Source: a virus
Taxonomy: Duplodnaviria; Caudoviricetes
Direction: 5' to 3' (one strand)
IMG/VR virus record: IMGVR_UViG_3300028591_005215
Location: 1 to 64,000 of that record
DNA: 64,000 nt
Positions 19,015 through 19,978 of the stretch are shown one piece after another. Positions within the stretch are counted from its first letter, which is position 1. Each line of letters starts with the position of its first letter. The position numbers were made by a program, and so were the translations under genes. The notes beneath the pieces are model-generated. The model searched no databases, was not told where the DNA came from, and worked only from the letters and a program-made list of their open reading frames with translations.

Positions 19015-19050
19015 AAAAAAAGACACTACTTATCACAAGCAATGTCTTTT
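19015..19050 (-). terminator. Terminator hairpin of the ncRNA operon; recurrent ATTGCTTG(T/C)GA(T)AAGTAGT family
   Basis: Hairpin plus T-run; relatives near 20848, 24778, 28612, 29983 and 33370. Confidence 0.7.
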
Positions 19051-19096
19051 AATTAGTTAAGTTATTTATTGTGTTCCGAGGTGTGGAACAAAGTTG

Positions 19097-19218
19097 TTCT
19101 TTCAAAGCGTGAAGGTGGTAAACGTATTTGTTTGACTATTTTATTATTTACGTTTATGCTTATCAAAGTGATTATCACTTAATGCACTATAGCCACCTTC
19201 ACATAGAAAGGAAATATG
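19097..19218 (-). ncRNA. Structured trailer RNA A (downstream of tRNA-like unit 1)
   Basis: 10-bp stem GTGAAGGTGG/CCACCTTCAC with an outer TTCCTTTC/GAAAGAA stem and internal hairpins. Confidence 0.55.
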
Positions 19219-19220
19219 TA

Positions 19221-19326
19221 GTTGATGGTATTGGATTTGCACCAATGCAGATACCTAAGTATCAGAATGTTCACCACATTCCCCATTTTGTTATACTGCT
19301 ATTATCAGTACTATGGAAACCACCAA
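19221..19326 (-). ncRNA. Non-canonical tRNA-like RNA, unit 1
   Basis: Acceptor TTGGTGGT/ACCATCAA, T arm ATTGG-TGCAAAT-CCAAT, anticodon arm GAATG-TGGTGAA-CATTC. Confidence 0.8.
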
Positions 19327-19339
19327 AATTCTTTATTAA

Positions 19340-19446
19340 ACCTTCTTTATTATAAAGGGGAATGGCTATAAAGCCCCAAATAAAATGCGTGTAGCAAGTA
19401 AGACAATATAACACATTCCCCACATCGAAAGGAGGTATTAAATATG
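19340..19446 (-). ncRNA. Structured trailer RNA B (downstream of tRNA-like unit 2)
   Basis: Stems GGGGAATG/CATTCCCC and ACCTCCTTT/AAAGAAGGT; same architecture as trailer A. Confidence 0.5.
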
Positions 19447-19447
19447 G

Positions 19448-19551
19448 GTTGGTAATGGTGGGTTCGAACCACCGCAGATACCTAAGTATCAGAATGTTCA
19501 CCACATTCCCCATTTTCTTTGCCCAATAATGCAAGCTATGGAAATTACCAA
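19448..19551 (-). ncRNA. Non-canonical tRNA-like RNA, unit 2 (followed by encoded CCA at 19445-19447)
   Basis: Acceptor TTGGTAAT/ATTACCAA, canonical T arm GGTGG-TTCGAAC-CCACC. Confidence 0.85.
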
Positions 19552-19554
19552 ATT

Positions 19555-19660
19555 GTTGGTTGTGATGGGTTCAAACCACCGCAGATACCTAAGTATCAGA
19601 ATGTTCACCACATTCCCCTTTTTGCTATCACTTCAAAATAGTGACTAAGGAAACAACCAA
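19555..19660 (-). ncRNA. Non-canonical tRNA-like RNA, unit 3
   Basis: Acceptor TTGGTTGT/ACAACCAA; compensatory D stem CCTT/AAGG. Confidence 0.8.
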
Positions 19661-19663
19661 ATT

Positions 19664-19772
19664 GTTGGTTAGATAGGATTTGCACCTATGCAGACTTTAA
19701 GTAAAGTCAGAATGTTCACCACATTCCCCATTTTGTTATACTGCTAAATATCAGTACTATGGAACTAACCAA
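19664..19772 (-). ncRNA. Non-canonical tRNA-like RNA, unit 4
   Basis: Acceptor TTGGTTAG/CTAACCAA; variable arm GACTTT/AAAGTC. Confidence 0.8.
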
Positions 19773-19786
19773 AAATATCTTAATTT

Positions 19787-19923
19787 AGGGAAGTAGCTAT
19801 TTTTTAAGACTTTTGCCATTTCGTCTTGTTTCATCACCAAGATGTCGGTTAAATGGTGATGCAACTACTTTTATTAGAATCTTAATTAATCATATATTTA
19901 AATAAGATTGCTGTAACTTCCCT
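19787..19923 (-). ncRNA. Structured leader RNA of the ncRNA operon
   Basis: Closing stem AGGGAAGT/ACTTCCCT; internal CATCACCA/TGGTGATG, AAGAC/GTCTT and AATCTTA/TAAGATT. Confidence 0.5.
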
Positions 19924-19947
19924 TGTTTTTATTTCTTAATTACATTG

Positions 19948-19978
19948 CAAATATATAATAATTAATTTAAAAATCAAA
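19948..19978 (-). promoter_or_regulatory. Promoter for the ncRNA operon
   Basis: TTTG-N19-TATATTTG on the - strand. Confidence 0.75.

What the first reader, a model, noticed from the sequence alone, without database searches (positions are those of the whole stretch)
19221..19772. Four non-canonical tRNA-like RNAs with an 8/5 fold, hairpin-extended D arm and invariant anticodon arm
Seen on the - strand: four 104-109 nt units; units 4, 3 and 2 are joined by 3-nt AAT linkers. Each unit reads: 8-bp acceptor, TT, 4-bp D stem, AG, an extra 4-5-bp hairpin, an A-rich linker, G, GAATG-TGGTGAA-CATTC, a long variable arm, TGC, 5-bp T arm, acceptor 3' strand, C. The stems differ in sequence but keep pairing. 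Acceptors are TTGGTGGT, TTGGTAAT, TTGGTTGT and TTGGTTAG; D stems CCAT/ATGG vs CCTT/AAGG; T stems ATTGG, GGTGG and ATAGG; variable arms GATAC/GTATC vs GACTTT/AAAGTC. U8-A14 and G15-C48 equivalents are retained. The last two bases of the extra hairpin loop covary with T-loop positions 55-56 (GG with TC, GA with TT, AG with GC twice), as expected for the 18-55 / 19-56 elbow contact. Only the anticodon arm is invariant: GTG (His-like) but with G instead of U33. Unit 2 ends in C-CCA. Inference: a selected, folded tRNA mimic rather than a decayed tRNA. Possible roles are a decoy for tRNA-targeting defences or synthetases, a ribosome ligand, or an RNase P/Z processing signal. I know no described class that matches it.
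Basis: partly seen in the sequence, partly recalled or inferred. Interest (0 to 1): 0.95.

Follow-up and report, generated by a model that had tools for sequence, protein, structure and literature searches.

The report
Phage tRNA-Tyr mimics with extra hairpin
A rumen jumbo phage carries four folded RNAs built from a tyrosine tRNA but altered so that they probably cannot read codons; they belong to an uncatalogued family found in gut jumbo phages that also encode their own tyrosine-charging enzyme, which points to an unknown phage-host conflict over tyrosine tRNA.

Summary
The four units are real. Across 22 distinct homologues 99% of the helix positions pair and 17 of 31 pairs change on both sides; Rfam and ARAGORN miss them. 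The units derive from Bacteroidota-type tRNA-Tyr. They belong to a wider family (62 distinct sequences, three D-loop designs) in arrays of gut jumbo phages. The elbow covariation holds but rests on few independent changes. All six complete relatives with the RNAs encode a TyrRS; so does this phage's species, just beyond the broken end of this record, with a swapped GxHH active-site motif. Best reading: non-decoding, multi-copy tRNA-Tyr mimics that act as a dose-dependent decoy for a host factor that attacks or binds tRNA-Tyr (about 40%); main rival: non-ribosomal partners of the phage TyrRS. Mature RNA and function are not shown. First readers of this scan noted the sister subfamily (type B) on other genomes.

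The parts
19948..19978 (-). Bacteroidota-type promoter (TTTG ... TAnnTTTG), predicted start near 19940
   Evidence: pattern; consensus from own knowledge; same promoter type precedes homologous arrays
19787..19922 (-). Leader RNA closed by a GGGAAGT/ACTTCCC stem with a TACAGCAA motif
   Evidence: fold; same closing stem and motif before the arrays in L036, L038, L039; similar elements in the tRNA clusters of relatives
19665..19771 (-). Unit 4: tRNA-Tyr-derived mimic, T loop TGCAAAT, hairpin loop ends AG
19556..19659 (-). Unit 3: mimic, T loop TTTGAAC, hairpin loop ends GA
19449..19550 (-). Unit 2: mimic, T loop TTCGAAC, hairpin loop ends GG
19327..19446 (-). Structured spacer that begins with a conserved CATA...ACCTCCTTTC segment (19446-19427), complementary to a Shine-Dalgarno plus start codon
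   Evidence: fold; motif conserved behind arrays in L036, L038, L039, L289
19222..19325 (-). Unit 1: mimic, T loop TGCAAAT, hairpin loop ends AG
19094..19218 (-). Structured trailer (multi-branch hairpin)
   Evidence: fold
19018..19050 (-). Intrinsic terminator with U tract; closes a predicted transcript of about 930 nt

Best explanation
The units are non-decoding mimics of tRNA-Tyr. Shown: they keep the tRNA-Tyr body (7-bp acceptor, A73, U8/A14/G15/C48 core, long variable arm in the Tyr setting, G34-U35, a D/T elbow pair) and have a hairpin inserted in the D loop, no U33 and a free base 36. Inferred: they are transcribed as one operon from their own promoter, cut out by the host tRNA-processing enzymes like ordinary tRNAs, and kept off the ribosome by the missing U-turn base and the bulky D arm. 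Inferred, most likely role: made in several diversified copies, they act by dose as a decoy for a host protein that recognises tRNA-Tyr, most plausibly a tRNA-Tyr-cleaving anti-phage nuclease of the kind known as Septu/PtuAB, while the phage TyrRS and the phage's own tRNA-Tyr keep tyrosine decoding running.
For: Ancestry: ordinary tRNA-Tyr inside the array shares acceptor and D stem; host tRNA-Tyr has A73 in 76/76 and the same variable-arm end in 74/76. Non-decoding: of 36 seven-base loops none has U33, all have G34-U35, base 36 is A, G or T, and GTA and GTG or GTT copies stand in one array or contig; 29 of 32 type B units have no seven-base loop at all. Selection. Multi-copy: 1-6 copies per locus with different stems. 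Tyrosine focus: TyrRS in 6/6 complete mimic-bearing genomes and in 0/11 large phage records without mimics; no class Ia or IIa synthetase in four complete relatives; the same-species 354-kb contig carries both the four units and the TyrRS. The decoding tRNA-Tyr of this species and of G002/G003 has an unusual variable region. Literature: Septu and retron-Eco7 cut the variable arm of tRNA-Tyr, phages escape by raising tRNA-Tyr dose, and phage tRNA-Tyr partly protects host tRNA-Tyr, 'decoy or supplement' (PMC13096335).
Against: No experiment. In PMC11555353 changing the anticodon of a phage tRNA-Tyr abolished rescue from retron-Eco7, which the authors read as supplementation, not decoy. A PtuB-type HNH model gave no match over its cut-off in 40 rumen/gut Bacteroidales genomes, three weak ones. 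The TyrRS link comes from one phage clade, so it is not independent evidence. RNA libraries hold the stretch but also its neighbours, so discrete RNAs are not shown.
Confidence: 0.4

Rival explanations
1. Private partners of the phage TyrRS: the RNAs are tyrosylated (or bind the enzyme) and serve outside the ribosome, as a tyrosine donor, a buffer or a regulator of the phage enzyme.
For: They keep A73, G34-U35 and the long variable arm, the elements named for TyrRS recognition (PMC9976931); U1:A72 in all 62 mimics and in the phage tRNA-Tyr, against G1:C72 in 76/76 host tRNA-Tyr; phage TyrRSs differ from hosts at the residue after the GGxDQ motif (W in hosts, F/Y/L in phages) and group apart from host enzymes in a quick tree; TyrRS co-occurrence.
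Against: Most type B units have lost G34-U35; the phages also encode an ordinary or altered decoding tRNA-Tyr, which alone explains the TyrRS; no acceptor enzyme for a non-ribosomal Tyr transfer was identified; the GxHH enzyme variant does not track the type A RNA (G004 and G006 have GxHH with type B).
Confidence: 0.25
2. Processing handles: the tRNA shape directs RNase P and 3' trimming so that the neighbouring structured RNAs (leader, spacer, trailer) are released and stabilised.
For: Acceptor/T half and elbow are intact; conserved non-coding modules flank the units.
Against: Units stand head to tail with 2-6 nt between them and nothing to release; a handle would not need a conserved anticodon loop sequence on different stems.
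Confidence: 0.12
3. Ligands of the Ro60-like vWA protein (DUF2828/DUF7788) encoded next to the TyrRS, working like Y RNAs in RNA repair or decay.
For: The gene lies directly before tyrS in all relatives examined; jumbo-phage TROVE proteins are proposed to work with tRNA-like partners (PMC7824862).
Against: No YrlA match in Rfam; the units have ordinary, unpermuted tRNA ends and no Ro-binding stem; the canonical TROVE model finds nothing; Ro60-likeness of DUF2828 is from memory, not tested.
Confidence: 0.08
4. Unusual but working tRNAs, hardened against nucleases, that decode Tyr codons (GTA copies).
For: The A18:G55 elbow also occurs in ordinary phage tRNA-Met and tRNA-Tyr; G33 is tolerated in Candida tRNA-Ser(CAG) (own knowledge); allo-tRNAs with odd shapes decode (PMC5389517).
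Against: All four copies here read GTG with A73 and no G-1, so they would put Tyr or nothing at His codons; base 36 is free; most type B units lack an anticodon loop; the phage has ordinary tRNA-His and tRNA-Asn.
Confidence: 0.08
5. The hairpin is an intron or the units are decaying tRNA pseudogenes.
For: Large phages have tRNAs with inserts read as introns (10.1101/356790).
Against: The elbow partner lies inside the type A hairpin, so removal would destroy it; the hairpin has four pairs with two-sided changes; the Lak Tyr insert lies at position 37, not in the D loop; RNA contigs show no joint that skips the hairpin (weak).
Confidence: 0.04

Closest known systems
Bacterial type II tRNA-Tyr (Bacteroidota and their phages; Rfam RF00005)
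   Same: 7/5 acceptor branch, A73, CCAG/ATGG-type D stem, U8, A14, G15, C48, long variable arm with one unpaired base before and two after, G34-U35
   Different: D loop enlarged by a 3-6 bp hairpin (three designs), no U33, free base 36 or a 7-bp arm with a six-base loop, mostly A18:G55 elbow; below Rfam and ARAGORN thresholds
tRNA-Sec (8/5) and allo-tRNA / selC* tRNAs (8/4, 9/3; Mukai et al., PMC5389517)
   Same: Long variable arm, non-canonical cloverleaf, longer D arm, found partly in phages, missed by standard annotation
   Different: Acceptor branch here is 7/5; those RNAs keep U33 and decode; their D arm is one continuous stem with a short loop, not a stem plus inserted hairpin
Phage T4 species 1 and 2 RNAs (rnaC, rnaD)
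   Same: Stable non-decoding small RNAs inside a phage tRNA transcript; rnaC has an acceptor-like stem and T arm
   Different: No sequence or CM match (L286 gives only tRNA-Leu, weakly); rnaC has no D stem or anticodon arm of tRNA type
Phage tRNA-Tyr against Septu / retron-Eco7 PtuAB (PMC11555353, PMC13096335)
   Same: Phage-encoded, dose-dependent tRNA-Tyr answer to a host attack on tRNA-Tyr; copy number matters
   Different: Those are decoding tRNAs; a dedicated non-decoding mimic has not been described
Plant-virus tRNA-like structures such as BMV TLS-Tyr, and bacterial YrlA Y RNAs
   Same: tRNA mimics that do not decode; the BMV element is tyrosylated (PMC9976931)
   Different: Free-standing cloverleaf genes derived from a tRNA, no pseudoknot, no permutation, no Ro-binding stem

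Membership tests
tRNA-Sec-like 8/5 tRNA | 8-bp acceptor stem (13-bp branch) | tested here: not met
   pair -1:73 present in 2 of 17 sequences outside this species; A73 invariant
tRNA-Sec-like 8/5 tRNA | UCA anticodon, 6-bp D stem with 4-nt loop | tested here: not met
   loop YGGTNAR; 4-bp stem plus internal loop plus hairpin
allo-tRNA / selC* (8/4, 9/3) | T stem of 4 or 3 bp with longer acceptor stem | tested here: not met
   5-bp T stem, 100% paired in 22 sequences
tRNA-His | G-1 and C73 with GUG anticodon | tested here: not met
   T-1 and A73 in all four units; an ordinary tRNA-His exists in the species
tRNA-Tyr (decoding) | A73, G34-U35, long variable arm in Tyr setting | tested here: met
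tRNA-Tyr (decoding) | U33 and A36, D loop of 8-11 nt | tested here: not met
   0 of 36 loops with U33; base 36 free; D loop region 24-57 nt
tRNA-Tyr (decoding) | Aminoacylation with Tyr and decoding on the ribosome | not testable with these tools
   needs biochemistry
YrlA Y RNA | Rfam RF02553 match, Ro60-binding stem, TROVE gene nearby | tested here: not met
Any Rfam 15 family | Score over the gathering threshold | tested here: not met
Intron-containing phage tRNA (Lak type) | Insert 3' of the anticodon that is removed | tested here: not met
   Lak Tyr insert at 37-129; insert here lies in the D loop; no spliced contig seen
RNA anti-defence decoy | Expressed in infection, binds or relieves a defence protein | not testable with these tools
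   RNA contigs only show presence

The most novel reading that the evidence does not exclude
These phages run a tyrosine module of their own: a phage TyrRS (in one branch with the swapped GxHH motif, known from inhibitor-resistant IleRS2), an altered decoding tRNA-Tyr, and a dedicated family of non-decoding tRNA-Tyr mimics with a rebuilt elbow that serve as RNA anti-defence decoys or as non-ribosomal TyrRS substrates. That would be a purpose-built tRNA-derived effector class in phages.
Probability: 0.35. Interest if true: 0.9.

Novelty: new variant of a known kind. Interest (0 to 1): 0.74.

Why it matters
Why large phages carry tRNAs and single synthetases is an open question. This family gives a direct test of the decoy idea, because the RNAs look unable to supplement translation. 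It also shows a tRNA elbow that survives a 3-6 bp hairpin in the D loop in three different ways, and it comes with a phage TyrRS/RNA set that differs from the host at base pair 1:72, of possible use for orthogonal translation work. Standard annotation misses all of it.

Tried and rejected
Rfam and ARAGORN: no hit; relaxed ARAGORN with introns gave noise. The exact 17-base anticodon arm in IMG/VR found only chance matches in genes; two relaxed type A patterns found nothing there. No match in GenBank phages for type A or B beyond ordinary tRNA-Tyr. No copy in cellular species genomes. Recoded genetic code: not supported, coding density 86% under table 11. bS21 and canonical TROVE genes absent from five records. 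Models R1 and R2 were built with the D and anticodon stems one column off (seen); they still found homologues by sequence, but their scores are not structure-true; the correct pair count is. RNA-library contigs cover units and neighbours alike, and two contigs run across the predicted promoter, so they show neither ends nor level. A small ORF on the + strand from the SD/ATG behind unit 2 stops after three codons and is not conserved. Literature searches for such RNAs found nothing; the supplement of the viral structured-RNA catalogue PMC10690425, which lists a candidate overlapping tRNA-Tyr (DNAVirus_1423), was not held, so overlap with it is not excluded. The TyrRS tree is a quick one with long branches. 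One search was a wasted look-up.

Full report
Setting. The window is the first 64 kb of a 279,749-bp virus record, 80% complete. Near-identical DNA comes from sheep and cattle gut samples, and a 354-kb contig of the same species carries the same four units. The closest cellular relatives of the phage TyrRS are Bacteroidales and the promoters are of Bacteroidota type, so the host is probably a rumen Bacteroidales; this is inference.

Observation. The four units are present where stated and fold as described. In tRNA numbering they span 19771-19665, 19659-19556, 19550-19449 and 19325-19222. ARAGORN and Rfam report nothing there. A promoter lies at 19978-19948 and a terminator at 19050-19018, which frames a protein-free unit of about 930 nt with a structured leader, spacer and trailer.

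Homologues. A pattern scan of metagenome contigs found the same design (type A) in other gut phages. On 22 distinct sequences the corrected structure pairs in 99.0% of cells, 17 of 31 pairs change on both sides, and every helix, the extra hairpin included, has such changes; shuffled and slid controls are far lower (related sequences inflate these counts). Scans of IMG/VR then found two sister designs. Type B (32 distinct sequences) has a GAGAA segment, a variable hairpin and a fixed linker in the D loop; 29 have a 7-bp anticodon-position arm with a six-base loop, the others a seven-base loop. Type C (3 tandem units in a 401-kb phage) has a 3-bp hairpin and an ordinary TTCGAAT T loop, and one unit has the same seven-base loop as the window on a different stem. 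No copy was found in cellular genomes or GenBank phages.

What they are built from. In L038 and L039 an ordinary tRNA-Tyr(GTA) lies inside the array and shares acceptor sequence, U1:A72, A73 and D stem with its neighbours. Host tRNA-Tyr has A73 in 76 of 76 cases and the same end of the variable region in 74. The fold is 7/5. The seven-base loops read YGGTNAR (once CCGTAAA): none of 36 has U33, all have G34-U35, and base 36 is A, G or T, sometimes mixed within one array. U33 is needed for the anticodon U-turn (established knowledge), and a free base 36 on a Tyr-type body would misread His or Asn codons. The species has ordinary tRNA-His and tRNA-Asn. I conclude that they do not decode; this is inference.

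Elbow. The rule G18:U55 or A18:G55 with G19:C56 is visible in ordinary phage tRNAs (three tRNA-Met and one tRNA-Tyr with TAG and a TGC T loop), in type B (31 AG:GC, 1 GG:TC) and in type C (GG:TC). In types B and C the partner bases sit behind the hairpin, in the normal register. In type A the normal register fits only 14 of 27 sequences, whereas the last two bases of the hairpin loop fit all 27 (25 by script, 2 by eye), and a further insert in that loop (L036) leaves them next to the stem.

The tyrosine module. Four complete relatives encode a class Ic synthetase identified as TyrRS, and no class Ia or IIa synthetase. In a wider test all 6 complete genomes with the RNAs had TyrRS, as did 3 of 7 further fragments, and none of 11 large phage records without the RNAs; these phages form one clade, so this is association, not proof. 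The window's record breaks inside dnaK. A contig 97-99% identical to its end continues through dnaJ, IF3, a sigma factor and a DUF2828/DUF7788 gene to a 427-aa TyrRS, and this exact protein is on record on the 354-kb contig that holds the four units. The enzyme keeps the tyrosine-binding residues and KFGKT but has GVHH in place of HxGH, shared with G004, G006 and other relatives. In IleRS2 this swap leaves activity nearly intact and gives hyper-resistance to an adenylate-mimicking antibiotic, while it kills IleRS1 (PMC10485003); activity of this TyrRS is therefore plausible but untested. The same species has a tRNA-Tyr with U33 and an unusual D and variable region, as do G002 and G003.

Expression. 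Six RNA libraries from four studies hold part of the stretch. Contigs from four of them cover pieces of the units but also neighbouring genes, and two run across the predicted promoter. This shows presence in RNA libraries and no more.

Mechanism. The conserved features are those by which proteins recognise tRNA-Tyr (A73, long variable arm, G34-U35; PMC9976931); the lost ones are those needed to read a codon. Several diversified copies under one promoter suggest action by dose. Septu and retron-Eco7 cut the variable arm of tRNA-Tyr, and phages escape by making more tRNA-Tyr, as 'decoy or supplement' (PMC13096335). A decoy role is my best reading (0.40). Against it, an anticodon change abolished rescue in PMC11555353, and a PtuB-type model found no clear member in 40 Bacteroidales genomes, so the target may be another protein. 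A private partner of the phage TyrRS is the main rival (0.25): U1:A72 in all mimics against G1:C72 in the hosts fits, but most type B units lack G34-U35. Processing handle, Ro60-like ligand, working tRNA and intron or decay are less likely, for the reasons listed.

Comparison and novelty. It works like a tRNA mimic but is not a member of tRNA-Sec, allo-tRNA, tRNA-His, YrlA or any Rfam family. T4 species 1 and 2 RNAs are the nearest precedent in kind, with a different build. The Lak tRNA-Tyr insert is at another position. I found no paper on this family; one catalogue of candidate viral RNAs could not be checked. First readers of this scan noted type B on other genomes, and follow-up notes describe other anticodon-less phage tRNA mimics; these are leads, not support. 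Verdict: a real, conserved, uncatalogued family of tRNA-Tyr-derived mimics tied to a phage TyrRS; new variant of a known kind, function open.

Noticed in passing
L303:13435-14718 (same phage species, beyond the end of this record): Phage TyrRS with the HIGH motif swapped to GVHH, also in G004, G006, P0189, P0190; the swap is known from inhibitor-resistant IleRS2 and, as far as I could search, not from TyrRS.
   Followed up: partly
window 19446-19427 (-), also 19218-19206; L036, L038, L039, L289: A conserved segment behind the arrays is complementary to a Shine-Dalgarno plus AUG and resembles the 3' end of 16S rRNA; 20 bases are identical in the distant phage G001. No conserved ORF on the other strand. 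Possible antisense or anti-SD mimic RNA.
   Followed up: partly
window 19922-19787 (-); L296:18401, 19279, 19834; L305:11711, 16350, 16561, 18464: A recurring small RNA module opening with GGAA...ACAGCAA and closed by a stem, repeated through the tRNA clusters of these phages; no Rfam match.
   Followed up: no
L305:17303-17391; L291:1468-1562 and 1654-1752: Phage tRNA-Tyr(GTA) genes with U33 but unusual D arm and variable region; G002 has three Tyr-like genes side by side.
   Followed up: partly
L077:10500-10770, L118, L120, L079, L086, L087 (behind type B units): A conserved structured RNA of several hundred bases follows the last type B unit; no Rfam match at gathering threshold.
   Followed up: no
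L049:6018-6082, L051: Short tRNA-like module in Bacillaceae genomes with acceptor stem, small D arm ending in TAG, one hairpin and a TGCAAAT T loop; no Rfam match.
   Followed up: no
L077:11390-11510, L079:6136-6261, L083:3877-4000, L086:10109-10232, L118:2962-3082, L120:4637-4757: 120-135-nt tRNA-like genes with weak tRNA scores in the type B phages, apparently another enlarged tRNA class.
   Followed up: no
L035:9129-9245: A type A unit with a longer hairpin insert whose 3' half is replaced by unrelated sequence: a truncated copy.
   Followed up: no
L303:11415-13115: DUF2828/DUF7788 vWA gene directly before tyrS in all relatives examined.
   Followed up: partly
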